Part shown: positions 1 through 22,381 of the stretch, piece after piece
Layout of the letters: every line of letters starts with the position of its first letter
How positions within the stretch are numbered: the first letter of the stretch is position 1
Virus record (IMG/VR): IMGVR_UViG_3300045988_176357
Location: 1 to 64,000 of that record
DNA from: a virus
DNA: 64,000 bases
Direction: 5' to 3' (one strand)
Made by a program: the position numbers and the translations under genes
Notes under the pieces: generated by a model
The model's input: only the letters and a program-made list of their open reading frames with translations
Database searches by the model: none
Told to the model about the DNA's origin: nothing

Positions 1-66
1 AGAGAAACCTGGCGGTACGTAACGAGTACCGTTGAACAGAACCTTGGTGTGTACACATCAAGACAG
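1..66 (+). ncRNA. group I intron, 3'-terminal portion (5' part lies upstream of the window)
   Basis: nt 1-53 identical to 2468-2520 (3' end of the intron at 2222-2541). The nrdD reading frame resumes right after position 66. Ends in G. Confidence 0.55.
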
Positions 67-1654
67 TGGAGGACAAGTCGTGTTTTCGTCCATTAATCTG
101 GGAACATGTGTGAAGCCTGGCGGTCGCCTTGCTACAAAGGCGCTGCTTAAGGCTATCGACGACGGCATCGGAAAGGGTGTAACGTCGTTGTTCCCAATCG
201 TAATCTTTAAGTTGAAGGAAGGAGTAACATATAGTCCACAAGACCCGAACTATGATTTGCGTCTGTACTCAGAGCGTGTGACCGCCAAGCGCATGTTCCC
301 CAACTACAGCAACCTCGACGCTCCGTACAACCTCAAGTACTACAAAGAGGGACATCCGGAGACAGAAGTTGCTTACATGGGTATGGCAGCTGGCAAGCAT
401 AAGGTACTGCTGCAAGATCCCGACATCCCAATGGAGGGATATCCGAGTGACCAGAAGGATTTTGCCATGTATCAGATGACCTTCGAAGACCTCTGGTACG
501 CAGTTGTAAAACTCGGAGGCGTTGTACGTAAGTTCGATGATACTACAGAGTACGTCGATCTGGAAGCCGATAACGTTCGCGTGGTTGCTATCTATGGAAG
601 AGAGCCCGACAAGGATTCCATGGATTACCGCGCCAGAAAACTGACACGAGTGAGAAAGATCATGCGCTGCAGCAAACCTGCACAGGGGCACACGTGGAAA
701 GACGTGTATGTGTACGGAACTGAAGACGGAAGCTACACAAGTACAGAGAAGCCTGTACGTAAAGTTCTGACGCTCACCAGCGATCATCCTCTGGCTCTTG
801 TGAAAAAAGGCAGAACACAGGTATGCGACATTCAATACGGTGTGGCTGGCGACAGCCTGCGTACGTATGATGGGTGCACGCAGGTACTGGACATCAGAGA
901 CAGCTCTTACACAGGATACGGATACGACATTGAGACTTACTCAGATATGTTCGTGCTGGACGACGTCATCAGTCACAACTGTCGTACACGTGCCATATCC
1001 AACGTCAACGGTCCTGAGATCGTCACAGACAGAGGCAACCTCAGCTTCACGACGCTGAACCTTCCAAGGTATGCCATAGAGGCATCCAGAGAAGGAACCA
1101 GTGAAGAGGAGCGCATCGAGATCTTCTTCAAGAAGCTCGACAAGTACCTTGACATTGCACGCAGACAGTTGGAGCACAGGTACAAGATCCAGTGCAACCG
1201 CAAGGTGTATAATCTGCCGTATGTCATGAAGCAGGGAGCTTACATGGGATCCGAACATCTCAGTCCTGATGACACCATACGCAAGGCCATCGAGAACGGT
1301 ACGCTGTCGTTTGGGTTTGTCGGCTTAGCGGAAGCATTGGTGGCTCTGACTGGACACGACCACACCGAAGGCGAACAATACCAGCAGTTGGGTCTGCGCA
1401 TCGTGAAGCATATGAGGGACTATGCCGACAAGCTCACTGAGGAGCAGCACATGAACTGGTCACTCATTGCTACACCTGCAGAGAGCGTGGCAGGCAAGAT
1501 GCTTCGCAAGGATCGCGCTGAGTTCGGTGTGATACCTGGCGTGACAGACAAGGACTATTATACCAACAGTAACCACGTGCCTGTATGGAGGAAGATCAGA
1601 GCTTCTGAGAAGATTCGCTTGGAAGCACCGTATCATGAGTTGACAAACGCGGGT
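67..1654 (+). CDS. nrdD: anaerobic ribonucleoside-triphosphate reductase NrdD, internal exon
   Basis: Translation carries class III RNR motifs (GNLSFTTLNLPRYA, IATPAESVAGK, DYYTNSNHVPV, LEAPY..L.NAG). Frame is open from window start. Exon ends at U1654 where similarity to E. coli NrdD (FEAPYPPLANGG|FICYGE) breaks and an intron core begins. Confidence 0.8.
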
Positions 1655-1994
1655 TGTTATATGGCTCGCTTTAAACAAGGTGAACGCAAATCAAAGCGGT
1701 GTGCAGCATAAGCTGCGCTAACGGTATCAGTTAGATAAGCACAGACGAATACGCTGACTAAGAAACGCTACGGTCCAGCAATGGATAGCAGCCGATACCG
1801 TGCCAAGTAGAAGGATACATATGATTATATGGTCTTCTAAAGGTGTAGAGACTAAAATATCTGCAGCAAACATGACAACAAACAGACGTGCTCAGATAGA
1901 GAGGAAGGACAAAGATACCTTCCGTAGTGCCTTGCTCAGCTACATAGCTGAGAAGAGATAGTCCGACACATGCTCGAAAGAGTTGAAACAAAAG
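1655..1994 (+). ncRNA. group I intron interrupting nrdD
   Basis: 340-nt insertion between in-frame NrdD segments (..LTNAG | HIAYVECEGDP aligns to E. coli ..LANGG FICYGEYPN). Contains a P7-like pair: R-like gctgactaagaaacg and S-like agagatagtcc. 5' exon ends in U, intron ends in G. Confidence 0.65.
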
Positions 1995-2221
1995 CATATA
2001 GCATACGTCGAATGTGAGGGTGACCCGAGGCAGAATCTCGATGCCCTGCATACTTTGATAAACATCATGCATGACGCAGGCGCAGGATACTTCAGTTTCA
2101 ATCATAAGATTGACACATGTACTAACTGCGGTTACAATGGCATCATTGGTGATGTTTGTCCGAGTTGCGGACAGAAAGAGACGCCAAGTCATCCATTTGT
2201 ACGTCCGAGAAGAATAACTGG
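1995..2221 (+). CDS. nrdD: NrdD exon: C-terminal Zn-ribbon and glycine-radical region
   Basis: HIAYVECEG..CTNCGY..CPSCG..VRPRRITG matches the NrdD C-terminus (CxxC..CxxC then RVCGY glycine radical loop). The frame breaks right after RRITG. Confidence 0.75.
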
Positions 2222-2541
2222 GTCTATGATGGCCCCTTCACACCGCGAGGTGTGTCGAACAAGAAAGTGAATTGCTGGGACACCTTAACGGGTCATGCCG
2301 AAGGCAATCAGCATCCGAGCCATGCGTTCGACAGAACGCCAGCGCATGGAAGGTTCATCGACTATCCCGAAAGGGAGTACCCGACAAGTGAAGGGGAAGC
2401 ACTCTGGCTCAGGAATGAGTCAATGATATAGTCAGTGCACTGCAGAAATGCAGTGAGTGGTCTCGGGAGAGAAACCTGGCGGTACGTAACGAGTACCGTT
2501 GAACAGAACCTTGGTGTGTACAACATCAAGACAGATCTTAG
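2222..2541 (+). ncRNA. group I intron interrupting the nrdD glycine-radical motif
   Basis: 320-nt insertion. Joining ..ATAACTGG to TTACGAG.. restores RRITG-YENRFNSAKTAELNARVTHA (compare NrdD RVCGYLG..RPFNAGKQEEVKRRVKH). R-like ggttcatcgactatccc and S-like aatgatatagtcagtg. About 200 nt at the 5' end are nearly identical to 9170-9420. Ends in G. Confidence 0.7.
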
Positions 2542-2605
2542 TTACGAGAACAGATTCAACTCAGCCAAGACGGCTGAGTTGAACGCAAGGGTAACACATG
2601 CCTGA
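2542..2605 (+). CDS. nrdD: NrdD terminal exon
   Basis: Encodes (G)YENRFNSAKTAELNARVTHA then stop TGA. Overlaps the nrdG start by 8 nt. Confidence 0.6.
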
Positions 2606-3137: not shown

Positions 3138-3141
3138 CCAT

Positions 3142-3550: not shown

Positions 3551-4465
3551 GTGCGAATTCCTAAGAATAAACCTATAATAGGGTATAAGGCATTCACAAA
3601 AGACTTGCAGTGTCGCGGGTATCAGTTTGCGATCGGTAAAGAATACCACCATAAAGGTCCTATACAGCTGTGTGCCAAAGGTTTCCACTTCTGCTCATCA
3701 GTAGATAAAGTTTTCGATTTTGCTCCGTATGAACTGAATCCTCAAACAACAAGGGTATGCTCGGTCTTAGCCTGGGGAAACATGCAAGAAGACACTAGGT
3801 CAGTAAAATACGTAGCTTCCAATATCCGTGTCATCAGAGAGTTGTCGATACAGCAGATATTGTCAGCTGCAAATTTCAGTGGCAGCAATTATGGCCGGTA
3901 CAATAGCGGTTCGTTCAATTACGGCAACTATAATACAGGTCGTGAAAACCTTGGCGACGGGAATTGTGGGGTAGGTAATTACGGCAACAATAATTATGGC
4001 AGCTTTAATTGGGGCAACGGTAACAGCGGCAACCATAATTTAGGGAACCATAACACAGGTTGCTATAATTATGCCAATTTCTGTGCAGGTACCTTATGTA
4101 CAGTATCCCATTCACCTTCTACATATATGTTCAACAGGCCTTTAACACTTGATGATGACCTCCGGATGCAAAGATACGGTTTCCCGGCGTTTTTCTGTTA
4201 TGTAAAACCTGTAATTGTTATCGATCAGCGAGATGTTGCAAAGTATAGAGGGTACATCAAAATTGACGACTACACTGAAGCTTTTGATGACCTAAGCATG
4301 TTGCGTACTGTGTCTTGGGAATCCTTGTGGCGGTTTGCACTTGCGAAAGCCAAGACTGAAAGAACCTGGAAAAAGCAACTTGAACACCTGGTTAATTTGC
4401 CTAACTTCAGTTATGCAGTCTTCGAAAGTATTACAGGTATCAGTAAACAGCAAATTCTAGAATAA
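3551..4465 (+). CDS. repeat protein with YadA-head-like N(Y/N)G repeats
   Basis: Intact ORF. Central SGSNYGRYNSGSFNYGNYNTG..GNYGNNNYGSFNWGNGNSGNHNLGNHNTGCYNY repeat array. GTG start inferred. Confidence 0.55.
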   Translation: MRIPKNKPIIGYKAFTKDLQCRGYQFAIGKEYHHKGPIQLCAKGFHFCSSVDKVFDFAPYELNPQTTRVCSVLAWGNMQEDTRSVKYVASNIRVIRELSIQQILSAANFSGSNYGRYNSGSFNYGNYNTGRENLGDGNCGVGNYGNNNYGSFNWGNGNSGNHNLGNHNTGCYNYANFCAGTLCTVSHSPSTYMFNRPLTLDDDLRMQRYGFPAFFCYVKPVIVIDQRDVAKYRGYIKIDDYTEAFDDLSMLRTVSWESLWRFALAKAKTERTWKKQLEHLVNLPNFSYAVFESITGISKQQILE

Positions 4466-6603: not shown

Positions 6604-7758
6604 ATGCTGAACCGTGAACTGTACAACAGACTTCGCACTGTGTTCAAAGATGTTCATGTGCAGTACGAGAATGTACAGCCCAAACTGAGACTGTTGCGAT
6701 GGCCGAGGCTGATCAACGGACAGCTGCGTGAGTGGGAATTCGACAGCAGAGGTTCAGGGGAGACGTACCAAATCAACTGTCCTGTATGCGGCGACAAGAA
6801 GGGGCACTGCTATATCTCGGCACTGTCTTTTACCAAGCCTCGTATAGGCGACCGCATCCTCACACCTGCACCTTTGCTCATACACTGTTTCAGGCGCAAC
6901 TGCTTCAGCGGTAATCCGGAAGCCAGGGAAGCTCTCACGCAGGTCCTCAAGTCCAGTACACCAATGGAACTTGATGTCGGCGAAGAGGATTGCTTCTCAG
7001 GTGCGCAGGAGCTGCAGCAGGACATACACAGGAACACAGAGGCGAACCTGCTTAAATGGCAGCCCGATTATCATCCCATAGATCATGATGCTCCTGCAGA
7101 GGTGCTTGACTATGTAGCCAAGCGCGGCATACAGGAACGTGACATCAAGGAACTCAAGATAGGGTGGGGTCGGTGCTGGAACTACAAAAAACAGAACTTC
7201 ATAGGCAACGGTAACTGGTTGCAGTTTCCTATCATCGATCAGGCCGGTCTCAGAGGCTTCCAGTCACGCCAGCTGCACAGCGACGGCAACCTGAAGTACT
7301 TCTTCGACACCAGAACACCCAAGAAGATGTGCCTATACAACAGAGAGCGTGCATCCAGCTTCCATATCGTAGCCATAGCCGAAGGCATCATCGATGCGCT
7401 CCATATAGGTCGCTGCGGCATGGCGTTCTTTGGGTTCGAGCCGAGTAAGGCACAGGTGCGTCTTCTGCAGCAGGACGGTGCGAAGCTGGTACTCTACATA
7501 CCAGACCAGAAGAAGCATTATACACCTGACGGTGTCTGTGACCTCGATCCGCCAAAGATAGCGGACACACACATAGAGCAGTGGCGCAGACAGCACCTGT
7601 TCGAGTGGGGCTGCTACAGAATCGATGTGCCGAGAGCTGATGCAGGGGAATGCACAACGGCGGAGATATGGGACGCCGTAGTGAAGCAGCTTGCCTACAA
7701 GTACAAGGTCGACGACTGCGTACTCGAAGTTCTGTTTAAACAACTGGAAAGAATATGA
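6604..7758 (+). CDS. DNA primase (Zn-finger plus TOPRIM, DnaG-like)
   Basis: CPVCGDKKGHCYIS..CFRRNC zinc finger and TOPRIM-like VAIAEGIIDALHIG. Confidence 0.7.
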   Translation: MLNRELYNRLRTVFKDVHVQYENVQPKLRLLRWPRLINGQLREWEFDSRGSGETYQINCPVCGDKKGHCYISALSFTKPRIGDRILTPAPLLIHCFRRNCFSGNPEAREALTQVLKSSTPMELDVGEEDCFSGAQELQQDIHRNTEANLLKWQPDYHPIDHDAPAEVLDYVAKRGIQERDIKELKIGWGRCWNYKKQNFIGNGNWLQFPIIDQAGLRGFQSRQLHSDGNLKYFFDTRTPKKMCLYNRERASSFHIVAIAEGIIDALHIGRCGMAFFGFEPSKAQVRLLQQDGAKLVLYIPDQKKHYTPDGVCDLDPPKIADTHIEQWRRQHLFEWGCYRIDVPRADAGECTTAEIWDAVVKQLAYKYKVDDCVLEVLFKQLERI

Positions 7759-7770: not shown

Positions 7771-9159
7771 GTGGCAAATTTAGCAACAATACAAAAGATA
7801 GCGAAAGTACGTGAGATCGACTCCACCAAGCGTGACATATGTGAATTGCGGTTCGAGGATTCCCTGTGGCATGTCGTAGGACAAAAGAACACATATAGTA
7901 TCGGGCAGCGTGTCGTCTTTTTCGCTCCTGGCAGTGTGATTCCAAAGGACACGGAAGCTTATAAGCACTTATGTGACTTTGTACGCAGTAACGCGAAAGG
8001 AATGGAAGTCACAGACGACTGCATTCATGTACACGCCTCGTCTGTAGGCATCAAGCATAAGACACACGGTCTGGTGCTTCCGCTTTCCTTGTTCCCTGAG
8101 CTGAAGAAGATGCCTGTTCGGTCAGATGTCACAGATCGGATCGGTGTTATTTCAGAGCGAGCGCTTAACACGAACGTAATTTGTGCCTCGCCTGATCTCG
8201 TTAAGCTGCCTCAGCCTGACTGGATACCTGCACGCAAGTTTGTCGACTTACGTGATCGTCCGGAAATGTTCGGCAGGTGCCAGCACTCGCGTTTCTATGG
8301 CGAGCTTATGGTCGACGGCAGCATTCCTGTTGCCGTGTACTGTGTAAGCGACAAATATGATGCGGATCGGTTTGGCGTCTGTGTCTTCGGCAACAAGATC
8401 AAGCGCCCAAGGTATTCGCAGGCAGAGATTAAGCGACTTCTGTATCAGCAGCCAAAAAAAGAACGGGGCTGTTTGCTGTCCCTGTGGGAATTGGCTGCGC
8501 ACTGCTGTCAAAGTCTGTGGCACTGGGCTACACATACCGATCAGGAGCTGCAGAAAGAACGGGACGAACAACAGCAGGAAGTGGACGATCTGGAACTTAT
8601 GCTGTTTGAGCGCAACGATCTGTGGAACACAATTGAGATCGAGAACATTGAACCAGCATTGAGCGAGTGGCAGCGCCGTACAGGGCGCAGCATAGTAGTC
8701 TTCTTCGAGTGGGTAGGACCTGACATACAAGGTAACCCGGAACGATATCCAGACCACAGACTGTATGCCAGTGATGTGTACGACTTGGATGGACAGAAGT
8801 GGCTGCTGCCCAAAGAACGTGAACTGTTCCTCGACGGTATCAGCAAACGGATACGCCAGGTAGTCAAGTGCTACCATGACTATCCCTTTGCAGGCAGCAG
8901 TGTTGACTCGACAATAGGTCTTGTAGCGGATATCTGCAATAACCGCAACACAGGGAAAAAGGGCATAATATTCAAGAGCTCGCAGGAACCTTATATGACT
9001 TTCAAGGTGCTCAGCGATCTGTACGGCAAGAAAACCAAAACGAGACTCAGCAAGGCAGCAACAGCCAATGACTACTTTGCTGCGCAGGAACGAAAGAGAA
9101 AGGAAAAGCAGGAAAGGTATCAAAAAGCGTATCCGCAGGCGAGACAGCCTGCAATGTGA
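7771..9159 (+). CDS. hypothetical protein (462 aa)
   Basis: Intact ORF with RBS. Lys/Glu-rich C-terminus. Ends with TGA exactly where the IStron-like element begins. Confidence 0.6.
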   Translation: MANLATIQKIAKVREIDSTKRDICELRFEDSLWHVVGQKNTYSIGQRVVFFAPGSVIPKDTEAYKHLCDFVRSNAKGMEVTDDCIHVHASSVGIKHKTHGLVLPLSLFPELKKMPVRSDVTDRIGVISERALNTNVICASPDLVKLPQPDWIPARKFVDLRDRPEMFGRCQHSRFYGELMVDGSIPVAVYCVSDKYDADRFGVCVFGNKIKRPRYSQAEIKRLLYQQPKKERGCLLSLWELAAHCCQSLWHWATHTDQELQKERDEQQQEVDDLELMLFERNDLWNTIEIENIEPALSEWQRRTGRSIVVFFEWVGPDIQGNPERYPDHRLYASDVYDLDGQKWLLPKERELFLDGISKRIRQVVKCYHDYPFAGSSVDSTIGLVADICNNRNTGKKGIIFKSSQEPYMTFKVLSDLYGKKTKTRLSKAATANDYFAAQERKRKEKQERYQKAYPQARQPAM

Positions 9160-9502
9160 TGCGCTTAAAGGTACCTTCACACCGCGAGGTGTGTCGAATA
9201 AGAAAGTGAATTGCTGGGACACCTTAACGGGTAATGCCGAAGGCAATCAGCAGCCGAGCTTATGGATGCCCGGACCGGGTGCCATAGGAAGGTTCATCGA
9301 CTATCCCGTAATGGGAGTACCCGAGCAGCCTTGCAGCGATAGCAGCAGAAGCAAGGGGAAGCACTCTGGCTCAGGAATGAGTCAATGATATAGTCAGTGC
9401 CTTGTGGAAACACAAGGAGTGGTCAGGAGTGACACCCTGAAACCTGGCAAGGTTTGGTACACCTTGCTGAACAGAACCATGGTAGTTAACACATCGACAA
9501 TG
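9160..9502 (+). ncRNA. group I intron moiety of the IStron-like element
   Basis: 9170-9420 is a near copy (point substitutions only) of nrdD intron 2230-2460, including R (ggttcatcgactatccc) and S (aatgatatagtcagtg) elements. The 3' part is diverged but shares aacctggc..gaacagaacc..acatc.aca. Confidence 0.65.
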
Positions 9503-9571: not shown

Positions 9572-10702
9572 ATGATAGCAAGCAGAGCACACAAGATAAA
9601 ACTCATGCCGACGCCTGAGCAGCAGGAGAAACTCCGCAGGAGATTTCTCCAAGGACAGGCGGTAAGGCACTTGTGCATCGAGTGGAGCTGTGAAATGTAC
9701 GCAGCCTGGAAACAGGACCCTGCGAACAATGCTTACCCATCATATGAAGCGATGGATAAGCGGTACACAAAGGAGAAGCCCGAGGAGGGCAACCTCCTTC
9801 CAAGGTGTTCAGCGCAGCGTAAGGTGCGCGACACCTGGAAGGCAGTGGAAAACCACATCAAGCACCCTGATAAGTACGCATGTCCGGATTACACCAAGAA
9901 GCGTGATGTACATGAGTACACGCTTTATGTGAACAATCAAGCGGCAGAAGTGGGCACAGATCACGGTAAGCCTTATGTTCACTTTCCAAAGCTCGGACTT
10001 ATTCGGCTCGCCGAGGAGTTCCGCTTCAAAGGTGCACGCATAATGTCGTACACCTTTTCGTGGGATTGTGTGGACATGTATGTGTCCATACAAGCGCAAG
10101 TTGAGGTTACTCCGATGTGCACCAACGACTCCACAGTTGGAGTCGATGTGGGTCTCAAGCACATTGCGGTCGCCTCAGATGGCACCACACTCGACTACCC
10201 GAAGGCGTACAAGAAGGCGCAGAAGCGTGTACGCGCGGAGCAGCGTAAGCTGCAGCGCAAAGTTCAAGACAGCAACAATTACTGGAAGCAGTACAGGCGT
10301 CTCAAAAAGGCGTACAAGAGAAAGGCGAACGTTATTAACGACGCCTTACATAAGTACACCACACGGCTATGCAAGACGCACAGCACAGTCGTCACAGAGA
10401 ACCTCAGTATTGCAGACCTTATCAAGACGTCCGAGAAGTGGATGCGAAGAGGCTTCGCCTTGTCCCAGATGAAGCGACTGATTCAGCTGCTTCAGTACAA
10501 GGCTGCCATCTACCGGCAGGTAGAACGATTCTTCGCGAGCAGCAAAACTTGTTCCCGCTGCGGCTACAAGAACAATGCGCTCACACTTGCGGATCGTACT
10601 TATGTGTGCCCCGAATGCGGCCTCCAGATAGACCGTGACCTCAATGCGGCGCACAATACACGCAATTTCATTGTAGGGTCGGTCAGACCCGATCTCCGGT
10701 AA
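9572..10702 (+). CDS. tnpB: IS200/IS605-family TnpB (RuvC-like RNA-guided nuclease, OrfB)
   Basis: 376-aa ORF. C-terminal Zn-finger and RuvC-III region CSRCGYKNNALTLADRTYVCPECGLQIDRDLNAAHN. Upstream RBS aagagg. Confidence 0.85.
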   Translation: MIASRAHKIKLMPTPEQQEKLRRRFLQGQAVRHLCIEWSCEMYAAWKQDPANNAYPSYEAMDKRYTKEKPEEGNLLPRCSAQRKVRDTWKAVENHIKHPDKYACPDYTKKRDVHEYTLYVNNQAAEVGTDHGKPYVHFPKLGLIRLAEEFRFKGARIMSYTFSWDCVDMYVSIQAQVEVTPMCTNDSTVGVDVGLKHIAVASDGTTLDYPKAYKKAQKRVRAEQRKLQRKVQDSNNYWKQYRRLKKAYKRKANVINDALHKYTTRLCKTHSTVVTENLSIADLIKTSEKWMRRGFALSQMKRLIQLLQYKAAIYRQVERFFASSKTCSRCGYKNNALTLADRTYVCPECGLQIDRDLNAAHNTRNFIVGSVRPDLR

Positions 10703-14621: not shown

Positions 14622-14861
14622 ATGAACAGTTCTGAGTGCGCCAAGTGCGCAAACGAAAAGGCTTGCTGTTAGCACGCTGACAGTGAAGTCAAAAAGCAGC
14701 TGGAAGATCTGAACAAGAAAATGGAAAAGCTTCAAAGTGGGCTTTTCCACACAGAACTCTGGCTGTCTTATTATAAATATACCACATTCGTGTTATCCTT
14801 CGGGATTGTCACGTATGTGGTATTGAAGTTGTTCTTTAGTTAATAAAGAACACGTCCTGAG
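14622..14861 (+). CDS. small coiled-coil plus TM protein whose frame contains TAG codons
   Basis: ATG with RBS aaagg. MNSSECAKCANEKACC-TAG-HADSEVKKQLEDL..FVLSFGIVTYV.. Closed by TGA only if TAG is read through. Architecture matches the ORF at 20862. Confidence 0.3.
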
Positions 14862-14878
14862 CACGACGTTAAACTGCC
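14855..14878 (+). repeat. 24-nt direct repeat, copy 1 (gtcctgagcacgacgttaaactgc)
   Basis: Exact or 1-mismatch copies at 14855, 14940 and 15899. Confidence 0.7.
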
Positions 14879-14939
14879 TATTCTCCGGGTGCCCCCTATA
14901 ACGGGGCTCGATAGGCACACATCCGTGCCGCCCGGAGTG
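14879..14939 (+). ncRNA. 61-nt element with predicted three-way-junction fold between direct repeats 1 and 2
   Basis: ctccgggtg / cgcccggag closing stem, with internal hairpins gccccctataacggggc and ggcacacatccgtgcc. Confidence 0.3.
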
Positions 14940-14963
14940 TCCTGAGCAAGACGTTAAACTGCT
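14940..14963 (+). repeat. 24-nt direct repeat, copy 2
   Basis: gtcctgagcaagacgttaaactgc (1 mismatch). Confidence 0.7.
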
Positions 14964-15898: not shown

Positions 15899-15922
15899 GT
15901 CCTGAGCACGACGTTAAACTGC
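15899..15922 (+). repeat. 24-nt direct repeat, copy 3
   Basis: gtcctgagcacgacgttaaactgc. Confidence 0.7.
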
Positions 15923-16604: not shown

Positions 16605-16682
16605 GGGACCGTAGCTTAGTCGGTTAGCAGCTGCTGACTCATACTCAGCCGGCCGCAGGTTCGAGCCCTGCCGGTCCCACCA
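16605..16682 (+). tRNA. tRNA-Met (anticodon CAT; elongator Met or Ile-lysidine type)
   Basis: Cloverleaf: acceptor GGGACCG/CGGTCCC, D-arm GCTT..AGC, anticodon stem GCTGA/TCAGC with loop CTCATAC, T-arm GCAGG TTCGAGC CCTGC. Encoded CCA. G1-C72 argues against an initiator. Confidence 0.85.
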
Positions 16683-17036: not shown

Positions 17037-17072
17037 AAAAAGGGGCCGTAATGGCCCCTTGAGTTTTCTTTT
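17037..17072. terminator. bidirectional rho-independent terminator
   Basis: aaaaggggccgtaatggccccttgagttttctttt. A/T runs on both sides. Sits between convergent genes. Confidence 0.75.
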
Positions 17073-17159: not shown

Positions 17160-18533
17160 TCATGATACTCCGATTTCCTGCATCAGCCATGCTATATTGT
17201 AGGTGTCATCAATGGCATAATCATAGATTCTTGCACGCGTGATACACGCATACAAATTGCGCCACGAACCACTCCAGGTATAATTGCCGAAGTTGAAACT
17301 ATAGGAGCTTGATAGGGTTAGAGACTTACTGGCACTTGTCTTCAATGTTCCATTTATATATAGTTTACACATGCCGTCCGTCGTGTATGTCACTAAAATG
17401 TGATACCACGTGTCAAGCTGTAACTCTTGTGTAACACCAATTAAAGAGTTACCTTCTTTCGTGCTCATCGTTATTGATGTGCCGTTAACCTGCAATCCCA
17501 ATCCATTGTATCCGTCATTGCTGCCATAAAAGAAAATCAGTTTGTTTTCCATCGTTTGTGTAAGACGCAATCCAAAAGAAATACTGATTTCGTGATTACC
17601 ATTCGGCAATGTACTATCTTTATCCCAATGTAAATAACCTGAATTAAGTACTGCTGTGGGAACACCGTCAACAGTGGAAAAGCTTACATTGCCTTCATTG
17701 CCTGTTGTAATACTTCCCGGATTTATCTCTATACTGTTATCCGTCATCAAAGGCACATAAAATACCGGGAGTGCTGGTTCAACGGCAAGGCTGCTGTAAA
17801 GAACGGCGACACGCACAGAACATGTGCTGTCATATATCATTCCGACTTGCGGAGTCATCCCGCTGTAAACCAGTCCTTCCGTGAGATCATCGCTGATCGT
17901 GTAACCGTTATCCCCCCACACCGCCTTGTAGCCGCTCCATGTCTTTGCGGTATCGTATGGGGTCAATACAAGGTCAGGATAGGCGTATGGGCTTGTATTG
18001 TTTTGCCAGCTCGTCACTTCCCACGGGTTGTCAGGGACCGTCGTCATGACTGAACGTATTTTCATTGTGTCCGAAGCTACATCGAATATGCACCAACGAT
18101 CTATCCCAGCAGTTGCGTTAGTATTCCTGATTTCCCATACGCCATCGGAAGTTCTCCATGTTCTGTTTTTCCCTGTGGCAGTCGCATCCACAATTGTATA
18201 CGTGCCATTGCATCCGTAAGCTGTATCACCAGTTACCTCGATAACAGCCCCAGATACTCCCGGTGTTACGCTGGCGCACTTGTAATACCCCGCCGAGGTG
18301 CCGCCGGAGCTCTCCAGCGTCCCTACAATGCCGTAGATGCTTACACCGGATTTGATGTTCTCCCCCAGCAGGTTGGCGTCTCCTGCGACCTTCACGGCTT
18401 TTGGCAGGTAGATTCCTTCAGCGGTTGATAATACTTTATCTTCAACGCCCGGTATAATCAGGCTTGAGCCGGTATAAGAGCTTATCGTGCCGGTGATTTT
18501 TTCACCGTTGACATAGGCTGTCTTACCGCTCAA
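17160..18533 (-). CDS. receptor-binding / tail fiber protein with C-terminal LamG (concanavalin-like lectin) domain
   Basis: Standard-code ORF. N-terminal SGGTSAGYYKCASV and TWSGYKAVWG modules are shared with the TAG-recoded gene 39679..40740. C-terminus is LamG-like. Start uncertain: TTG in track and no upstream ATG before TGA. Confidence 0.65.
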   Translation of the reverse strand: MSGKTAYVNGEKITGTISSYTGSSLIIPGVEDKVLSTAEGIYLPKAVKVAGDANLLGENIKSGVSIYGIVGTLESSGGTSAGYYKCASVTPGVSGAVIEVTGDTAYGCNGTYTIVDATATGKNRTWRTSDGVWEIRNTNATAGIDRWCIFDVASDTMKIRSVMTTVPDNPWEVTSWQNNTSPYAYPDLVLTPYDTAKTWSGYKAVWGDNGYTISDDLTEGLVYSGMTPQVGMIYDSTCSVRVAVLYSSLAVEPALPVFYVPLMTDNSIEINPGSITTGNEGNVSFSTVDGVPTAVLNSGYLHWDKDSTLPNGNHEISISFGLRLTQTMENKLIFFYGSNDGYNGLGLQVNGTSITMSTKEGNSLIGVTQELQLDTWYHILVTYTTDGMCKLYINGTLKTSASKSLTLSSSYSFNFGNYTWSGSWRNLYACITRARIYDYAIDDTYNIAWLMQEIGVS

Positions 18534-18709
18534 GATATCGCCCGCCCCAGCCGTGGCGTCTGTGGTGTCCGTGCCGCCTGATTCGATGCCGCCAATAGCA
18601 TTCGCACATTGGTACAGCGTGGAGTCCTGCGACAGGCTGCCGCCTTTATTGTTGATCGCCGTCCATACTTGTCAAAATATCATTCAAAGCCATAAATAAC
18701 CTCCTCAAG

Positions 18710-19642
18710 TTAAGCTGTTGTTACTGTCCATCCACGCTCAATAAGTGTCTGTTTATCTATTAATCCCTGACCAGTTGGTGGAGCTGATATTTCCTGATAG
18801 TTTATGTCCAAAGTTCCATTGGTTTTCGCATTCGAGACAAGCGATGCCAGTATATTATTCACAACATCAGAGGTAAATTTGTTAGAGTAGGCGGCAAGGT
18901 ATTTTAATGCTGTGTTTTGCGCTATATTCAGCATAGTTAAACCGTTGTTATTGCACGCTAACGTTACGAGGTTTGCATTATTACTGATATCAAGAGCTGA
19001 CAAAGCGTTCCCCTTACAATCCAGTGAAGTTAATGTGGGACATAAACTTATGTCGATGGATGTTAATGTGCTAGTCGTACAATTCAATGTCGTAACTGTT
19101 CCTTGTATCGTTGTTGTTCCTGCTGACAAGGTAAATTCAGCAGGGAATTCCGTATAGGTCTGTGAGGCGGATCCATTTGTTACAATGACAGAGCCTGTTG
19201 CATTGATTGCGACTTTACTTTGTCCTTGTGATCCGCTTTCTGATACGAGTGTAATTATTTCATCTCCTGATTCTCCGCCGCTGCCGCCTCCTGTCGGCGT
19301 CCCTATGATCGCCATTGCGGCGGATTCAAATGCGGATGTGTCGCCGCCGGAAGCATACGCCGGTTCAGCCTTTCCTGTATTGAATATCTTGGCTGCATAG
19401 CTCTCTGCTGTTCCGTTCGCCATTGCCGATGTGCCGCTGAATTCCAGAGGCTGCACTTTCAGTCCGGTACTGTCAGATACCAGCACACCAACCTCAAGTC
19501 CGTTCTCTATGGTCTGCACAGCTGCGGCAATGTCCATGAGGCTGTAAGGAGAAGCAACAGCGGCTCCCTTAGCTTCAGTCGCGCTCTTCAGTTTATTCCT
19601 GGCAAAGTCCAACGCATTGTATATATTGTCACTCTTAGACAT
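18710..19642 (-). CDS. leucine-rich-repeat (LRR) protein, probable receptor-binding accessory protein
   Basis: LRR units LTSIDISLCPTLTSLDCKGNALSALDISNNANLVTLACNNNGLTMLNI. Standard code. Start overlaps the stop of the upstream aaRS-like gene. Confidence 0.7.
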   Translation of the reverse strand: MSKSDNIYNALDFARNKLKSATEAKGAAVASPYSLMDIAAAVQTIENGLEVGVLVSDSTGLKVQPLEFSGTSAMANGTAESYAAKIFNTGKAEPAYASGGDTSAFESAAMAIIGTPTGGGSGGESGDEIITLVSESGSQGQSKVAINATGSVIVTNGSASQTYTEFPAEFTLSAGTTTIQGTVTTLNCTTSTLTSIDISLCPTLTSLDCKGNALSALDISNNANLVTLACNNNGLTMLNIAQNTALKYLAAYSNKFTSDVVNNILASLVSNAKTNGTLDINYQEISAPPTGQGLIDKQTLIERGWTVTTA

Positions 19643-20705
19643 GATGTATCCTTAATCTTTCAACAGCTTCTTCTTTACCTATAGCCTGCAGCACTGTATT
19701 GAGGTCGAGCGAATACGGGCTTCCGCACAGTGATTTCCTTGCAGCTCCGTATGCTTCCTTCCTGTCAAGCTTCTGTGCAGCTATCCATGCATCCACAGGC
19801 TTCTCACAGTCGAGGTACTTAATAAGACCCTCACATGAAATATGTTCCGGTCTTTCCCACAGATACCTGAACTGCACAGCGTCTTCTCCGCACCTTACAT
19901 GCTGCTTTATATACTGCCAGTACATGCCGCTTCCAGGCACACACGCCTCGCACACATCAGCACTCATATAGTCCCTGTTCATAGCCTTCAACTTCTTCAG
20001 ATCCATATGCGCAGGACTTTTATTGTTGCCTATGCTCAGCAGATACTTGTACAGGCACTCAGGCAGAATGCCCATATCCAGCACCTTCCCTACAGTGCCC
20101 GCACGATCTCTCTTGCTGAGAGGCTTCCCGTCGTCGCCGAGTATCATGGACATCGATCTGTACTCAGGAGCCTTGCATCCCATGGCTTCATACAGTGCAA
20201 TCTGCTTGCAGGTGTTGAACACATGGTCGTTGCCTCTGATGACAATAAGCTCTCCGAGTTCCATGAGAAGTGAATCATCCACGGCGTTGGCAAAGATGAA
20301 TGATGGCTCACCGTTGCTTCTGATGCATACAAACGGTTCCCAGGAGCTGTAGATGTTGCCCTGCACCTTGTCCTTGTAAGATGCTTCGCCTGCAGGAAAC
20401 CATATGGCACCATCCTTCTCAAACATCTTTCCCTTGCTCACAAGGTCTTTGGCTATGGAGATATGAAGTTCCTTGTTGTCGGACTGCCTGTATATCCTGT
20501 CAGGTTCCATGCCCATGCGCTTCATCGTGCCTATGATGCGTTCCGTGCACGCAGGTACCAGGCGGTCGTTGGCTGTGTCTTCTACTCGAAGTACAAAGAT
20601 CCCGTGCTCCCTGCGTGCAAGGTCATGGTTCAGTGCTGCCATGCGAAGGTTGCCTATGTGGATGTCGTCGCCGGTAGGCGAAGGTGCGAATCGTGTGACT
20701 GTCAT
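19635..20705 (-). CDS. class I aminoacyl-tRNA synthetase catalytic core of the GluRS/GlnRS family (GluQ-RS-like, no anticodon-binding domain)
   Basis: TRFAPSPTGDDIHIGNLRMAALNHDLARREHGIFVLRVEDTANDR aligns to the GluRS HIGH region. FANAVDDSLLMELGELIVIRGNDH and GDDGKPLSKRD match the KMSKS motif. 356 aa, standard code. Confidence 0.8.
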   Translation of the reverse strand: MTVTRFAPSPTGDDIHIGNLRMAALNHDLARREHGIFVLRVEDTANDRLVPACTERIIGTMKRMGMEPDRIYRQSDNKELHISIAKDLVSKGKMFEKDGAIWFPAGEASYKDKVQGNIYSSWEPFVCIRSNGEPSFIFANAVDDSLLMELGELIVIRGNDHVFNTCKQIALYEAMGCKAPEYRSMSMILGDDGKPLSKRDRAGTVGKVLDMGILPECLYKYLLSIGNNKSPAHMDLKKLKAMNRDYMSADVCEACVPGSGMYWQYIKQHVRCGEDAVQFRYLWERPEHISCEGLIKYLDCEKPVDAWIAAQKLDRKEAYGAARKSLCGSPYSLDLNTVLQAIGKEEAVERLRIHHV

Positions 20706-20764
20706 TGTGCCTCCTTTTGGACTTATTCTAGGCGCTGTCAGGAGGACGTAAACAGCTAAATAGT

Positions 20765-20840
20765 GCGCATATTTATGGCATAATAAAGTGAAGGAGGATC
20801 TTAGCAGTCAGGCGAGGTGCCTGGCGGGATCCTCCAACAC
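20765..20840 (+). repeat. direct repeat copy 2 (remnant 3' end of gene 14105..14581 plus hairpin)
   Basis: gcgcatatttatggcataataaagtgaaggaggat (34/35 identical), then ggaggatc..gatcctcc. Encodes ..TAK-CAYLWHNKVKEDL. Confidence 0.6.
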
Positions 20841-20861
20841 TTTCAACGAAAGGAGTCCGGA

Positions 20862-21095
20862 GTGGACACTATAGTTGATATCGTAAAGCAAGCAGAAGAA
20901 AAATAGCTTGCGCTTGCCAGAGCGCACAACGAGAATCTGAGACAGCAACTTGCAGCAACTGAAAAGGAACTGCGTGACAACTGGTTTCAGATTCTTCGGC
21001 TACAGTATCGTATAGATATGCTGGTGGGTTCAGCTATTGTTGCAGTTATCAGCATGATTGCCATCATTGCAGCTTACTTCATGTTTGCCCATTGA
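20862..21095 (+). CDS. small coiled-coil plus C-terminal TM protein with an in-frame TAG
   Basis: GTG start after RBS aaaggag. ..VKQAEEK-TAG-LALARAHNENLRQQL..VGSAIVAVISMIAIIAAYFMFAH. Position and architecture parallel the ORF at 14622. Confidence 0.3.
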
Positions 21096-21342
21096 GCACT
21101 AAAAAGACCCGTATGGTTGCTGCCATACGGGTCCAAACAGAAAGGTTCTCTTGTGATAAAGGAAATGTCTCTGCTGTTGCACAGCTCCAGAACAGTTGTG
21201 CAGTTCATTGAAGTTCGATAGTAGATCGAGCTTCTCCTCAACAAGGAACTGTCTTATTGTACATCCGACAGTGACAAAATCAAAGTACTGAAGAAGTGCA
21301 TTGACTGTCTGTTGCTGAAAGATTACATACAGTAAGCAAGCA

Positions 21343-21376
21343 GGGGCCGCAATGGCCCCTTGAGTTTTCTTTTTAC
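21343..21376. terminator. bidirectional terminator (same hairpin family as 17037)
   Basis: caggggccgcaatggccccttgagttttcttttt. Confidence 0.7.
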
Positions 21377-21439
21377 TATGCAGTGGAAGACGGCAGCAGT
21401 CCCTTCTGTCCTTTATGCAGTGTGTACATATTGGCCTTC

Positions 21440-22174
21440 TTATTCCGTTGTATTGGTACCATAGAATGCGTTGACTGCGTTTGTCACGTTGGGAAGCTTC
21501 GCCAGGAACGCAGAGCGGGAGCCTGTCACTGTTCCGGGCGAGTTGCCTGAACCGGCGTTGTAGAACATGGACATTATATTTCTTACTTCTGTCCAGCCTC
21601 CTTCAGGCGCATTGGCTGTGAGGTCATCAAGGTTGATTACAGCCAACAGAGTATTGTCAAATGCTGATACAAGACTTCCAGTGAGTCCAGCCGGAAGCCT
21701 TGTAAGCGGCAGCGTAGCTTTGGTGCAGCCTTTGAACATGGAACTTGCTGCAGTCATCCCCTTGGGAAGTTCTGAGAAGTTAAACAATGCATTGGTGCAG
21801 CCTTCGAACATGTTAGTGCCATTTGTAATGTTCCCCAGCGCATCCCAGTTGCCGTTGGCATCATATACAAGTGGTGCGTATGTGCCATGGTATCCGAACA
21901 TACATCTATAGCAGTCCGCCTTAATTCTTATTGTGTACGTTCCAGCTGCAGCATAAGTGTGCGTGAGTCTGGTGCCGCTCGCAGTCGCATCCTGCGGCGC
22001 TCCGTCGCCCCAGTCAACAACCTTACAGTAACCGCCAGTGTTCCAATAAGGAGTGAAACCATAGGTGAGCGAGTTGCCAAGGATTCCGGGCTTCACAACA
22101 AGCTCGAAGTAAGGTCCAAGATTGGAGCCCATCGGATCCAGCGGATAAGGTATTGCAGACATCGGTATCTCCAT
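21440..22174 (-). CDS. BspA-type LRR / PKD-like surface-binding protein
   Basis: Standard-code ORF. PKD-like GDGAPQDATASGTRLTHTYAAAGTYTIRIKA. BspA-like FEGCTNALFNFSELPKGMTAASSMFKGCTKATL. Confidence 0.65.
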   Translation of the reverse strand: MEIPMSAIPYPLDPMGSNLGPYFELVVKPGILGNSLTYGFTPYWNTGGYCKVVDWGDGAPQDATASGTRLTHTYAAAGTYTIRIKADCYRCMFGYHGTYAPLVYDANGNWDALGNITNGTNMFEGCTNALFNFSELPKGMTAASSMFKGCTKATLPLTRLPAGLTGSLVSAFDNTLLAVINLDDLTANAPEGGWTEVRNIMSMFYNAGSGNSPGTVTGSRSAFLAKLPNVTNAVNAFYGTNTTE

Positions 22175-22381
22175 AATTAAAGCTGTTTGACATTACAGTA
22201 TATACAGTACGATATACGTAACATCTCATGCATATAACGTATGTGCACACGTCCGGCAGGACAAGGCATCAGTGTGTACACGCATGAGAAGCACAATAAG
22301 GGTACAAATACGCGGAGCGTATCAGTACACTGGAGTGCCTGATCTGTGGCACTTTCTAGCGGCACATCCGAGGATACCACT

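What the first reader, a model, noticed from the sequence alone, without database searches (positions are those of the whole stretch)
1..22300. The early region never uses TAG, either as a stop or in-frame
All ~40 genes called between 1 and 22.3 kb terminate with TAA or TGA (for example nrdD TGA, nrdG TAA, primase TGA, tnpB TAA, aaRS TAA). TAG would be expected for a noticeable fraction of stops in a standard-code genome. About 5,500 early codons contain no in-frame TAG apart from two tiny ORFs. This suggests TAG is reassigned genome-wide and that early genes are purged of TAG so they can be expressed before a suppressor is available. It is the signature of suppression-gated late-gene expression.
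Basis: seen in the sequence. Interest (0 to 1): 0.7.

Follow-up and report, generated by a model that had tools for sequence, protein, structure and literature searches.

The report
Gut phage reads TAG as glutamate
This is one third of a ~192 kb human-gut phage genome in which the stop codon TAG never appears in the early genes, yet stands for more than half of all glutamate codons in the late genes. Its TAG-free part also encodes the phage's own small glutamyl-tRNA synthetase. This is the known "code-switch" way of delaying late genes, but with glutamate, an amino acid I found no report of for phages.

Summary
In 1-22.3 kb, all 30 real ORFs end in TAA or TGA, and about 6,000 codons contain no in-frame TAG. 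From 22,346 onward, 33 genes carry 408 in-frame TAG (33 per 1,000 codons). Reading TAG as sense restores long ORFs there, including one of 2,065 codons with 97 TAG.

The timing itself is inferred, not shown.

The new point is the meaning of TAG: it is glutamate, not the usual glutamine.
- GAA+GAG falls from 5.8% of early codons to 2.4% of late codons, and TAG (3.3%) makes up the difference.
- **Conserved columns:** across 79 standard-code portal homologs, the TAG columns score Glu +44 bits and Gln -41 bits.
- **Orthologous codons:** in relatives, window TAG pairs with GAA/GAG 51 times and with CAA/CAG 10 times.

A TAG-free gene at 19,635-20,705 (-) encodes a compact bacterial-type GluRS. Three diverged relatives carry it at the same boundary with TAG-rich genes.

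No tRNA(CUA) was found in the ~101 kb of the genome I could read; ~91 kb stayed unread. Public pipelines translate this clade with Gln at TAG.

The parts
1..22300 (.). TAG-free block. The + strand operon runs from 1 to about 17,000 and the - strand block from 17,160 to 22,174. No TAG stops and no in-frame TAG in real genes.
32..2605 (+). nrdD (anaerobic ribonucleotide reductase), interrupted by group I introns. Exons are roughly 67-1665, 1990-2214 and 2535-2605, and the true stop is TGA. The window starts inside an upstream intron. Exon 1 (ATP-cone) lies at the other end of the circular contig.
   Evidence: Pfam PF13597; Rfam RF00028 at 2214-2455, E 8e-7; translations; contig end
2598..3137 (+). 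nrdG-like activase (4Fe-4S, radical SAM type). Stop TAA.
   Evidence: PF13353, E 6e-29
6604..7758 (+). Primase-like protein (weak DnaG match). Stop TGA.
   Evidence: PF08275, E 0.005, below the curated cutoff
7771..9417 (+). RNA-ligase-like gene, with a group I intron at 9121-9417 at its 3' end.
   Evidence: PF09414; Rfam RF00028, 54 bits against a gathering score of 50
9572..10702 (+). TnpB (IS605 OrfB / Cas12f-like). TAG-free, stop TAA.
   Evidence: PF01385, PF07282
14622..14843 (+). Small ORF of 73 codons with a hydrophobic C-terminus. It is the only plausible gene in the block with an in-frame TAG (codon 17), which is conserved in relative L005.
16605..16682 (+). The only tRNA in the window. 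Its anticodon is CAU (Met, or more likely Ile2), so it is not a suppressor.
   Evidence: ARAGORN; Rfam 59 bits; ATA is the commonest Ile codon at 20 per 1,000
17040..17060 (.). Bidirectional terminator-like hairpin between the converging + and - strand TAG-free blocks.
19635..20705 (-). Compact bacterial-type glutamyl-tRNA synthetase (356 aa). TAG-free, stop TAA. Candidate enzyme that charges a UAG-reading tRNA with Glu.
   Evidence: PF00749, E 2e-41; PDB GluRS hits at 1e-34 against GlnRS at 8e-5; HIGN and LSKR motifs and invariant active-site residues; AF2 model pLDDT 92, TM 0.81-0.84 to GluRS structures
17160..22174 (-). Minus-strand TAG-free block: Laminin_G_3 protein (17160-18533), LRR-like protein (18710-19642), GluRS, and PKD-domain protein (21440-22174).
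22346..64000 (+). TAG-rich late block. 33 genes, 12,200 codons, 408 in-frame TAG. All ORFs end in TAA or TGA when TAG is read as sense (this is how the ORFs were defined). TAG makes up 58% of Glu codons.
22346..28543 (+). Giant late protein of 2,065 codons with 97 in-frame TAG, transcribed divergently from the TAG-free block. Equivalent giant TAG-rich genes face the GluRS gene in three other lineages.
51151..53025 (+). Portal protein, 624 codons with 30 TAG. This is the family used to infer the meaning of TAG.
   Evidence: 100 homologs; annotated 'portal protein' in Salmonella phage Arash
49296..50108 (-). Patatin-like phospholipase on the minus strand with 6 in-frame TAG. TAG use is therefore not confined to one strand.
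   Evidence: PF01734; two TAG positions align to Asp in PlpD
57685..58416 (+). 243-codon late gene with 10 in-frame TAG and no family match. It resembles the N-terminal part of an RNA polymerase beta subunit only by eye.
   Evidence: translation; no Pfam or PHROG hit
61928..64000 (+). Fused multisubunit RNA polymerase beta/beta' gene with an intein. It is cut by the window end and has 18 TAG so far.
   Evidence: translation; the relative's 2,299-aa product carries RNA_pol_Rpb2_6, RNA_pol_Rpb1_2, Intein_splicing and LAGLIDADG_3
29798..30875 (-). TAG-free island inside the late block: two minus-strand genes (29798-30154 and 30141-30875) of unknown function that use GAA/GAG for Glu.
39745..40740 (+). 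F5/8 type C (discoidin) domain protein. TAG-free from its ATG at 39745, or one TAG if it starts at 39679.
   Evidence: PF00754

Best explanation
The window is the first third of a circular ~192 kb phage genome from the human gut. The phage uses two coding regimes.

Genes in 1-22.3 kb, and at least 27 kb further upstream across the circular junction, are written so that a standard-code host can translate them. They contain no TAG as a sense codon and no TAG as a stop. Among them is a phage-specific, shortened bacterial-type glutamyl-tRNA synthetase.

Genes from 22,346 onward are structural proteins, the portal, tail-fibre-like proteins and a multisubunit RNA polymerase. They use TAG as the majority codon for glutamate, about one TAG every 30 codons.

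Proposed mechanism:
1. Early after infection, only the TAG-free set is made.
2. The phage GluRS charges a UAG-reading tRNA with glutamate. That tRNA was not found and is presumably encoded in the unread ~91 kb.
3. Once UAG decoding outcompetes host release factor 1, the late genes become translatable.

A gene with 97 TAG demands very high per-codon efficiency: 99% per codon would still give only about 38% full-length product. So release factor 1 is probably also neutralised by some unknown means.

What is shown: TAG is sense, the codon partition, the Glu meaning (comparative inference only), the GluRS identity, and its co-occurrence with recoding. What is inferred: the timing, the GluRS substrate, and the handling of release factor 1.
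For: TAG is sense:
- ORF coverage in the late region rises from 47% to 96% when TAG is read through.
- Long ORFs appear with 97, 26, 30 and 26 TAG.
- The portal has 100 full-length homologs of about 625 aa.

The partition:
- 0 of 350 Glu positions are TAG in early genes, against 408 of 699 in late genes.

TAG means Glu:
- Codon budget. TAG+GAR is 5.73% in late genes, GAR is 5.81% in early genes, and GAR is 5.86% in the late genes of standard-code relative L013.
- Invariant columns. At the 30 portal TAG columns, standard-code homologs show E (column 279: E 88; column 374: E 87; column 393: E 82).
- Log-odds. The summed scores are E +44.4, D -16.9, Q -41.0, and control columns behave correctly.
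- Other lineages. Three other recoded relatives give the same result: E +52, E +16, and E/D +8/+9, with Q between -23 and -36.
- Codon pairs. Across several late genes, window TAG pairs with relatives' GAA/GAG 51 times and with CAA/CAG 10 times.
- The apparent Q. The 'Q' at TAG columns in the closest database homologs are TAG codons that pipelines translated under code 15.

The GluRS:
- establish it as a bacterial-type GluRS.
- It forms a 13-cluster phage-only family. After that family, similarity drops to 37% identity or less against cellular GluRS.
- In three lineages with 42-55% identical GluRS, the TAG-free GluRS gene again sits at the boundary with giant TAG-rich genes carrying 117, 92+25 and 121 TAG.
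- There are about 13 phage-type GluRS clusters and about 16 recoded portal clusters, against about 84 standard-code portal clusters.
Against: - No tRNA with anticodon CUA was found in the window, in the further 37 kb of the same genome that could be read, or within 10 kb of the GluRS gene in three other lineages. Methods were ARAGORN with and without introns, Rfam, and a custom anticodon-hairpin scan.
- No release-factor gene was seen.
- There are no expression or proteomic data, so both the timing and the inserted amino acid rest on comparative inference.
- The minus-strand TAG-free genes next to the GluRS look like surface or adhesion proteins, not classic early genes. In lineage L016 the neighbouring Laminin_G_3 gene does contain TAG.
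- Two TAG-rich homing-endonuclease ORFs sit inside the upstream TAG-free region.
- Bacterial GluRS can be non-discriminating. Glu on a tRNA-Gln-like suppressor could in principle be amidated to Gln by host GatCAB.
Confidence: 0.72

Rival explanations
1. This is ordinary genetic code 15. TAG is read as glutamine, as in crAss-like and Lak phages, with the same early/late partition. The GluRS-like gene would be incidental, or it would feed the indirect pathway (Glu-tRNA amidated to Gln-tRNA by host GatCAB).
For: - TAG to Gln is the only TAG reassignment reported for phages whose code differs from the host's (Borges et al. preprint; Lak paper).
- Public pipelines already translate these relatives with Q.
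- The best structural matches include non-discriminating GluRS.
Against: - Q scores -41 bits at TAG columns against +44 for E, and this repeats in three relatives.
- Columns that are E in 82-88 of 95 homologs carry TAG.
- If TAG were Gln, late proteins would be 2.4% Glu and 8.3% Gln. Orthologous standard-code proteins are 5.9% Glu.
- TAG pairs with GAA/GAG five times more often than with CAA/CAG.
Confidence: 0.06
2. The partition is a passive by-product and not a regulatory device. Once a UAG-to-Glu suppressor exists, GAG-to-TAG changes are tolerated only in genes translated after it accumulates. Early genes are kept clean by purifying selection, and TAG confers no timing benefit.
For: - TAG and GAR interchange freely among close relatives at the same columns. 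The portal has between 11 and 31 TAG in different relatives.
- TAG-free islands occur in the late block and TAG-rich endonucleases in the early block.
Against: - TAG is not a minor synonymous codon. It holds 58% of Glu positions overall, 100% in some genes, and 31 of 38 in one relative's portal.
- That share exceeds what drift among three synonymous codons predicts.
- The pattern persists across lineages with 35-49% GC.
- This rival shares the whole molecular mechanism with the main explanation and differs only in whether the pattern is adaptive.
Confidence: 0.2
3. The TAG-free region is a mosaic segment recently acquired from a standard-code phage, so its lack of TAG reflects ancestry and not function.
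For: Phage genomes are mosaic. The region carries mobile elements: group I introns, several TnpB copies and homing endonucleases.
Against: - GC content is the same on both sides, about 0.49.
- Total Glu usage is the same on both sides.
- The same TAG-free / TAG-rich boundary next to the GluRS gene is kept in lineages whose GluRS is only 42-55% identical.
- TAG is avoided as a stop as well, which a standard-code donor would not do. The standard-code relative uses TAG for 18% of stops.
Confidence: 0.02

Closest known systems
TAG-recoded gut phages using code 15 (crAss-like, Lak, Garnet, Topaz and others; Ivanova 2014; Borges et al. 2021/2022; block structure handled by Mgcod)
   Same: - In-frame TAG is concentrated in structural and late genes.
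- Standard-code-compatible early genes carry the code-change machinery.
- TAG is not used as a stop.
- The source is the human gut.
- Recoded and standard-code members sit in the same clade.
   Different: - TAG stands for Glu here, not Gln. Borges et al. state that only TAG to Gln and TGA to Trp were observed in phages whose code differs from the host's.
- TAG density is very high: 3.3% of late codons and 58% of Glu codons.
- No suppressor tRNA or RF2 gene was seen in the part of the genome I could read.
- By portal homology the clade is unrelated to crAss or Lak phages.
Code-change module of TGA-recoded Jade phages (TrpRS + tRNA(UCA) + RF1 in standard code, upstream of the lysis genes; Borges et al.)
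   Same: A phage-encoded aminoacyl-tRNA synthetase of the matching amino acid is written in standard code and placed at the edge of the recoded genes.
   Different: - The enzyme is a GluRS with a shortened C-terminal domain, not a TrpRS.
- No adjacent suppressor tRNA or release factor.
- The recoded codon is TAG, not TGA.
Eukaryotic nuclear codes with UAG = Glu (peritrich ciliates, table 30; Blastocrithidia, table 31; some oligohymenophorean and phyllopharyngean ciliates)
   Same: UAG is decoded as glutamate. The tables are cited from my own knowledge; the ciliate papers appear in the listing.
   Different: - Those are whole-organism codes, usually with UAA reassigned as well.
- They have no early/late partition.
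- They arose with eukaryotic release-factor changes.
- Here UAA remains a stop, and the code is switched inside a host that presumably uses the standard code.
Bacterial glutamyl-tRNA synthetase (GltX) and its paralog GluQRS (YadB)
   Same: - Class I Rossmann catalytic core with HIGH-type (HIGN) and KMSKS-type (LSKR) motifs.
- Invariant Glu-site residues.
- Whole-length fold match to GluRS structures, TM 0.81-0.84.
   Different: - 356 aa against 430-490 aa for cellular GluRS.
- It lacks the insertion in the catalytic domain.
- It lacks most of the sequence-recognisable anticodon-binding domain: PF19269 is not detected.
- Unlike GluQRS, it keeps a helical C-terminal domain, and it matches YadB far less well (TM 0.50-0.53).
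Salmonella phage Arash and Vibrio phages D181/D148/D69 (~180-187 kb cultured myoviruses)
   Same: They are the only GenBank phages with a detectable portal homolog (23-25% identity, E 1e-38 to 1e-45) and have a similar genome size.
   Different: - The relationship is very distant.
- The portal matched as one unbroken tblastn segment under the standard code.
- No phage-type GluRS was found in GenBank phages.

Membership tests
Stop-codon-recoded phage with standard-code early genes (Borges et al. model) | In-frame stop codons of one kind interrupt conserved genes, and reading them as sense restores full-length homologs. | tested here: met
   The portal, RNA polymerase, patatin and C92 peptidase are all restored only when TAG is read as sense.
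Stop-codon-recoded phage with standard-code early genes (Borges et al. model) | The recoded codon is absent from early, replication and code-change genes, and enriched in structural and late genes. | tested here: met
   0 in-frame TAG in about 6,000 early codons against 408 in 12,200 late codons. The upstream 27 kb is also TAG-free. Exceptions are listed.
Stop-codon-recoded phage with standard-code early genes (Borges et al. model) | A suppressor tRNA with the matching anticodon (CUA) is encoded by the phage. | tested here: inconclusive
   None was found in the 64 kb window, in 37 kb more of the same contig, or near the GluRS gene in three relatives. About 91 kb of the genome could not be read. 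Borges et al. found suppressors in only 40% of TAG-recoded genomes.
Stop-codon-recoded phage with standard-code early genes (Borges et al. model) | Late genes are translated only after the code switch (temporal gating). | not testable with these tools
   This needs time-resolved transcript and protein data from an infection.
Genetic code 15 (TAG = Gln) | TAG positions align with Gln in standard-code homologs. | tested here: not met
   Gln scores -41 bits and Glu +44 bits over the 30 portal columns. Three relatives give the same result. Codon pairs are 51 GAR against 10 CAR. The composition budget agrees.
Bacterial-type glutamyl-tRNA synthetase (class I, GltX) | Catalytic domain with HIGH and KMSKS signature motifs and conserved Glu/ATP-site residues. 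| tested here: met
   PF00749, E 2e-41. HIGN at residues 16-19 and LSKR at 196-199. Invariant columns are R5, A7, S9, E42, R157, H161 and K198.
Bacterial-type glutamyl-tRNA synthetase (class I, GltX) | Overall GluRS fold, including a helical C-terminal anticodon-binding region. | tested here: met
   AF2 model pLDDT 92. The top 42 PDB matches are all bacterial GluRS, and the best of them reach TM 0.81-0.84 normalised to the query. No GlnRS is among the top 50.
Bacterial-type glutamyl-tRNA synthetase (class I, GltX) | Canonical anticodon-binding domain (PF19269) that reads the UUC anticodon. | tested here: inconclusive
   PF19269 is not detected in the window protein or in 12 of the 13 phage clusters. 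The alignment shows large deletions in this region. A shortened helical domain is still predicted.
Bacterial-type glutamyl-tRNA synthetase (class I, GltX) | Charges a tRNA with glutamate. The question here is which tRNA. | not testable with these tools
   This needs an aminoacylation assay with the purified enzyme and candidate tRNAs.
GluQRS (YadB, glutamyl-queuosine tRNA-Asp synthetase) | Catalytic domain only, with no C-terminal anticodon-binding domain. | tested here: not met
   The window protein has about 125 residues of helical C-terminal domain. YadB matches much less well (E 2e-14 by sequence; TM 0.50-0.53).

The most novel reading that the evidence does not exclude
A clade of ~170-200 kb gut phages carries a natural, phage-encoded translation system that rewrites UAG to glutamate inside a standard-code host. 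The system would be a miniaturised GluRS plus a UAG-reading tRNA not yet located. The phage uses it as a master switch by writing most glutamate codons of its late genes as UAG. As far as my searches reach, this would be the first UAG-to-Glu reassignment described outside eukaryotes. It would also be the first phage code change that depends on a dedicated GluRS.
Probability: 0.6. Interest if true: 0.85.

Novelty: new variant of a known kind. Interest (0 to 1): 0.75.

Why it matters
1. It would add a third kind of stop-codon reassignment to phage biology. It would also show that the code-switch strategy is not tied to the two reactions (Gln on CUA, Trp on UCA) that host synthetases already perform by accident. 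Here the phage appears to bring its own enzyme.

2. A naturally compact GluRS that presumably recognises a non-cognate anticodon is a candidate orthogonal pair for genetic code expansion.

3. There is a practical consequence. Public protein sets translate this clade either under the standard code (fragmented genes and antisense shadow ORFs called as genes) or under code 15. Code 15 puts Gln at about 3% of late-protein residues where Glu belongs, including invariant acidic residues. That distorts homology searches, structure prediction and proteomic matching.

4. A gene with 97 UAG codons implies near-complete silencing of release factor 1. That points to an unknown anti-RF1 function that is worth looking for.

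Tried and rejected
- **Other recodings.** TGA or TAA recoding gives no coherent ORF pattern.
- **Suppressor tRNA search.** I used ARAGORN at default settings, with introns, and at lowered thresholds (only noise). I also used Rfam at gathering and E-value thresholds and a custom scan for anticodon-arm hairpins with a CUA loop. None found a candidate.
- **The tRNA at 16605.** Its anticodon loop is the normal CUCAUAC, so it cannot read UAG.
- **Walking the genome.** Exact-protein look-ups reached 155-192 kb of the same contig and found no tRNA(CUA).
- **IMG/VR.** It holds a 95 kb relative, but this appears to cover the same part of the genome, and pattern walking failed.
- **Other collections.** GenBank phages have no near DNA matches and no phage-type GluRS. 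IMG/VR and GTDB genomes also lack the phage-type GluRS.
- **Family searches.** PHROG and Pfam searches of most late proteins gave nothing.
- **ORFs rejected as genes.** The TAG-ending antisense ORF 1758-2192(-) is not a gene. The long minus-strand ORFs 55921-56391, 59558-60070 and 60556-61602 are shadows of + strand TAG-containing genes.
- **Literature.** Searches for UAG-to-Glu or GluRS in recoded phages found nothing. The nearest remark is that some Lak TAG positions align with E, which the authors read as a GAG-to-TAG mutation under a Gln code.
- **Promoters.** No shared late-promoter motif was evident by eye.

Full report
**Source of the window.** Exact-protein look-ups place the window at the start of ENA contig ERZ28595212 LIJU14-1_SAMEA2338819_METAG-scaffold_51. 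That contig is 192,159 bp and comes from a human gut metagenome. Its last ~55 bases repeat the first bases of the window, and its end carries the first (ATP-cone) exon of nrdD. The window begins inside the intron that follows that exon. The genome is therefore circular or circularly permuted, about 192 kb long. GenBank phages hold no near relative. The portal protein has distant homologs only in Salmonella phage Arash and three ~187 kb Vibrio phages. Metagenomes hold about 100 clusters of full-length portal homologs, on contigs of up to 200 kb. This is a large, uncultured clade.

**The observation.** On the coding strands of 1-22.3 kb there are 31 standard-code ORFs of at least 50 aa. Of these, 18 end in TAA, 12 in TGA and 1 in TAG. 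The TAG-ending ORF (1800-1961) is intron sequence. The nrdD reading frame resumes at about 1990 with the conserved C-terminal zinc-ribbon and glycyl-radical region, and the gene finishes at a TGA at 2603-2605.

In 23 confident genes (5,567 codons) there is no in-frame TAG. The +1 and +2 frames contain 75 and 12 TAG. The codon is therefore avoided in frame, not absent from the DNA.

A standard-code relative of the clade (L013) ends 5 of 28 genes in TAG. At that rate, 0 of 30 has a probability of about 0.003.

An antisense ORF that ends in TAG (1758-2192) is called as a gene in public records. It accumulates only non-synonymous differences, so it is not a gene.

The single credible exception is a 73-codon ORF with a hydrophobic tail at 14622-14843. 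Its TAG at codon 17 is conserved in a 94%-identical relative.

The TAG-free regime continues upstream across the junction for at least 27 kb. That stretch has 38 called genes. Its only two TAG "stops" are a 40-aa ORF and a TnpB fragment that reads through the TAG.

**The rest of the window.** Standard-code ORFs collapse after 22.3 kb. Reading TAG as sense raises coverage by ORFs of at least 150 aa from 47% to 96% there. TGA or TAA read-through gives nothing coherent.

The late block has 33 genes and 12,200 codons with 408 in-frame TAG. Examples are a 2,065-codon gene with 97 TAG, a portal with 30, and collagen-like tail-fibre proteins. A fused RNA polymerase beta/beta' gene carries an intein, and a minus-strand patatin gene has 6 TAG.

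Long minus-strand ORFs in this block are antisense shadows of TAG-containing + strand genes.

**What TAG encodes.** Three independent lines point to glutamate.

1. *Codon budget.* GAA+GAG make up 5.81% of early codons but 2.39% of late codons, and TAG makes up 3.34% of late codons. The late sum of 5.73% equals the early value and also the 5.86% in the late genes of standard-code relative L013. Gln codons are 3.2% in early genes and 4.9% in late genes, and would reach 8.3% if TAG were Gln.

2. *Conserved columns.* The portal was aligned with its homologs. The 79 that show no sign of recoding have E at the TAG columns, for example 88, 87 and 82 sequences at three columns. The summed log-odds over 30 columns are E +44.4, D -16.9 and Q -41.0. 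Control columns (query E, Q or D) recover their own residue.

   The 15 closest homologs appear to have Q at these columns. Fetching their DNA shows that these Q are TAG codons which pipelines translated under code 15. P0005 has 11 TAG. P0002 has 31 TAG and only 7 ordinary Glu codons. Re-translated with TAG masked, three such relatives give the same verdict: E or E/D on top, and Q at -23 to -36 bits.

3. *Orthologous codons.* Across several late genes, window TAG aligns in three relatives with TAG 46 times, GAA/GAG 51 times, GAC/GAT 18 times and CAA/CAG 10 times. Motif-level checks agree. In the patatin gene, two TAG positions align to Asp in PlpD.

**The synthetase.** The TAG-free gene 19635-20705(-) encodes a 356-aa protein.
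- It carries the class I Glu/Gln catalytic domain.
- Solved bacterial GluRS match at 1e-34, GlnRS only at 8e-5, and GluQRS at 2e-14.
- An alignment with cellular GluRS shows invariant N-terminal Glu/ATP-site residues, a HIGH-type motif (HIGN) and a KMSKS-type motif (LSKR). It also shows deletions of the insertion in the catalytic domain and of much of the anticodon-binding region.
- Pfam's GluRS anticodon-binding domain is not detected.
- An AlphaFold2 model (pLDDT 92) superposes on bacterial GluRS over its whole length, TM 0.81-0.84. No GlnRS appears among the top 50 matches.

The database holds only 13 clusters of this short type (39-98% identity). Similarity then jumps down to cellular GluRS at 37% identity or less. 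None is present in GenBank phages, IMG/VR or GTDB genomes.

In three lineages with GluRS 42-55% identical to this one, the gene is again TAG-free. It again sits at the junction between a TAG-free block and giant TAG-rich genes with 117, 92+25 and 121 TAG. The number of short-GluRS clusters (13) is close to the number of recoded portal clusters (about 16), and far below the number of standard-code portal clusters (about 84). That fits restriction of the enzyme to recoded lineages, though I could not test this genome by genome.

**What is missing.** The only tRNA in the window has anticodon CAU. ATA is the commonest Ile codon, so this is probably a tRNA-Ile2. No tRNA(CUA) turned up by any method in the window, in 155-192 kb of the same contig, or near the GluRS gene in relatives. 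No release-factor gene was seen in those same regions. About 91 kb of the genome could not be reached. Borges et al. found suppressor tRNAs in only 40% of TAG-recoded genomes.

**Mechanism.** The best reading has four steps:
1. The host translates the TAG-free set, including the GluRS.
2. The GluRS loads a UAG-reading tRNA with glutamate.
3. UAG decoding overtakes termination.
4. The late genes, unreadable until then, are expressed.

With 97 TAG in one gene, 99% efficiency per codon still gives only about 38% full-length product, and 95% gives under 1%. Release factor 1 must therefore be almost silenced. This is an inference, and no candidate gene is known.

TAG avoidance as a stop in early genes follows from the same logic. 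After the switch, a TAG stop would be read through.

The share of Glu positions held by TAG is 58% here and up to 82% in one relative's portal. This pattern persists across lineages of 35-49% GC. Both points argue against simple drift among synonymous codons.

**Comparison with what is known.** The architecture is that of recoded phages described by Ivanova et al., Borges et al. and others, and of the block-wise codes handled by Mgcod. The Jade-phage module of TrpRS, tRNA(UCA) and RF1 is the nearest mechanistic parallel.

The difference is the amino acid. Borges et al. state that only TAG to Gln and TGA to Trp were seen in phages whose code differs from the host's. My literature searches found no report of UAG to Glu, or of a GluRS, in recoded phages. 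The nearest remark is that some Lak TAG positions align with E under an assumed Gln code. UAG = Glu is known in ciliates and Blastocrithidia (from my own knowledge; ciliate papers are listed).

I therefore file this as a new variant of a known kind. It fails the membership test for code 15, while it works like the code-switch phages.

**Caveats.**
- The Glu assignment is comparative, not proteomic.
- The GluRS-to-tRNA link is unproven.
- The label "early" rests on gene functions.
- The minus-strand TAG-free block contains adhesin-like proteins.
- Two TAG-free islands lie inside the late block (29798-30875 on the minus strand, and 39745-40740).
- Two TAG-rich homing endonucleases lie inside the upstream TAG-free region.

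Noticed in passing
window 1-66, ~1665-1990, ~2214-2534, 9121-9417: nrdD is split by three group I introns, and the window starts inside the first. The RNA-ligase-like gene carries a fourth. Two of them are about 87% identical over about 150 nt (2235-2384 against 9174-9324). The 3' ends of two nrdD introns are 98% identical (1-66 against 2468-2534). In relatives, the first nrdD intron holds an HNH_3 endonuclease ORF.
   Followed up: partly
window 14854-14877, 14939-14962, 15899-15922: A 24-nt motif, GTCCTGAGCACGACGTTAAACTGC, occurs three times on the + strand (0 expected by chance) and is conserved in relatives L002, L003 and L005. All three copies lie in or beside a stretch of about 0.9 kb (14,844-15,733) that has no convincing ORF and no Rfam match. 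The stretch may be a structured RNA or a regulatory region.
   Followed up: partly
window 16605-16682; L018 16596-16672; L028 3991-4066: A tRNA with anticodon CAU and an encoded CCA end lies near the GluRS gene, both here and in a lineage whose GluRS is 55% identical. ATA is the most used Ile codon at 20-21 per 1,000, so it may be a lysidine-type tRNA-Ile2 and not tRNA-Met.
   Followed up: partly
L025 5670-6371 and 6611-7627 (same contig, about 160.7-162.6 kb): Two homing-endonuclease-type ORFs (GIY-YIG with 15 TAG, HNH with 20 TAG) lie in a 2.3 kb stretch of the otherwise TAG-free early region that has no called genes. TAG falls at the conserved Glu of the GIY-YIG motif.
   Followed up: partly
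L020 / L023 (same contig, about 165-182 kb): Just upstream of the window across the circular junction lies a reverse transcriptase (RVT_1). It is followed by Prok-E2_D, Prok-JAB and ThiF (E1) genes, which together form a ubiquitin-like conjugation set. RusA, ThyX, several DUF7666/pentapeptide proteins and three more TnpB copies (one decayed) are also there.
   Followed up: no
window 61928-64000; L014 from 21530: The RNA polymerase gene is a beta/beta' fusion (2,299 aa in a relative) interrupted by at least one intein with a LAGLIDADG domain. The intein starts at 'CYRADTLILT' after the conserved 'RTA[TAG]R' motif.
   Followed up: partly
Database proteins P0001-P0018 and P0035; L007/L008 gene calls: Public gene calls for this clade are wrong in one of two ways. 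Standard-code calls give fragments plus antisense shadow ORFs called as genes (for example window 41481-42368(-) and 42468-43538(-)). Code-15 calls give full-length proteins with Gln at every TAG.
   Followed up: yes
window late genes starting at 40789, 43329, 50666, 51151, 55151, 57685: Six of 31 late genes have TAG as their third codon, where about one is expected. Start-codon choice is uncertain, so this may be an artefact. If real, it would stop translation almost at once before the code switch.
   Followed up: partly
window, upstream of early genes (for example 3180, 3540, 7760, 16715): Strong Shine-Dalgarno sequences (AAGGAG, AGGAGA) precede many genes. This suggests a host that uses them, so probably not a Bacteroidota. 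Recoded relatives range from 35% to 49% GC and the standard-code relative is 62% GC, so the clade probably spans several host groups.
   Followed up: no
L019 12341-12404 (-): A pistol ribozyme (Rfam RF02679, 67 bits) lies in the TAG-free block of a GluRS-bearing relative.
   Followed up: no
window 3551-4465; L001, L023, L025: Many paralogous DUF7666 + pentapeptide-repeat proteins are scattered through the early region: at least five copies in 155-192 kb plus one in the window.
   Followed up: no
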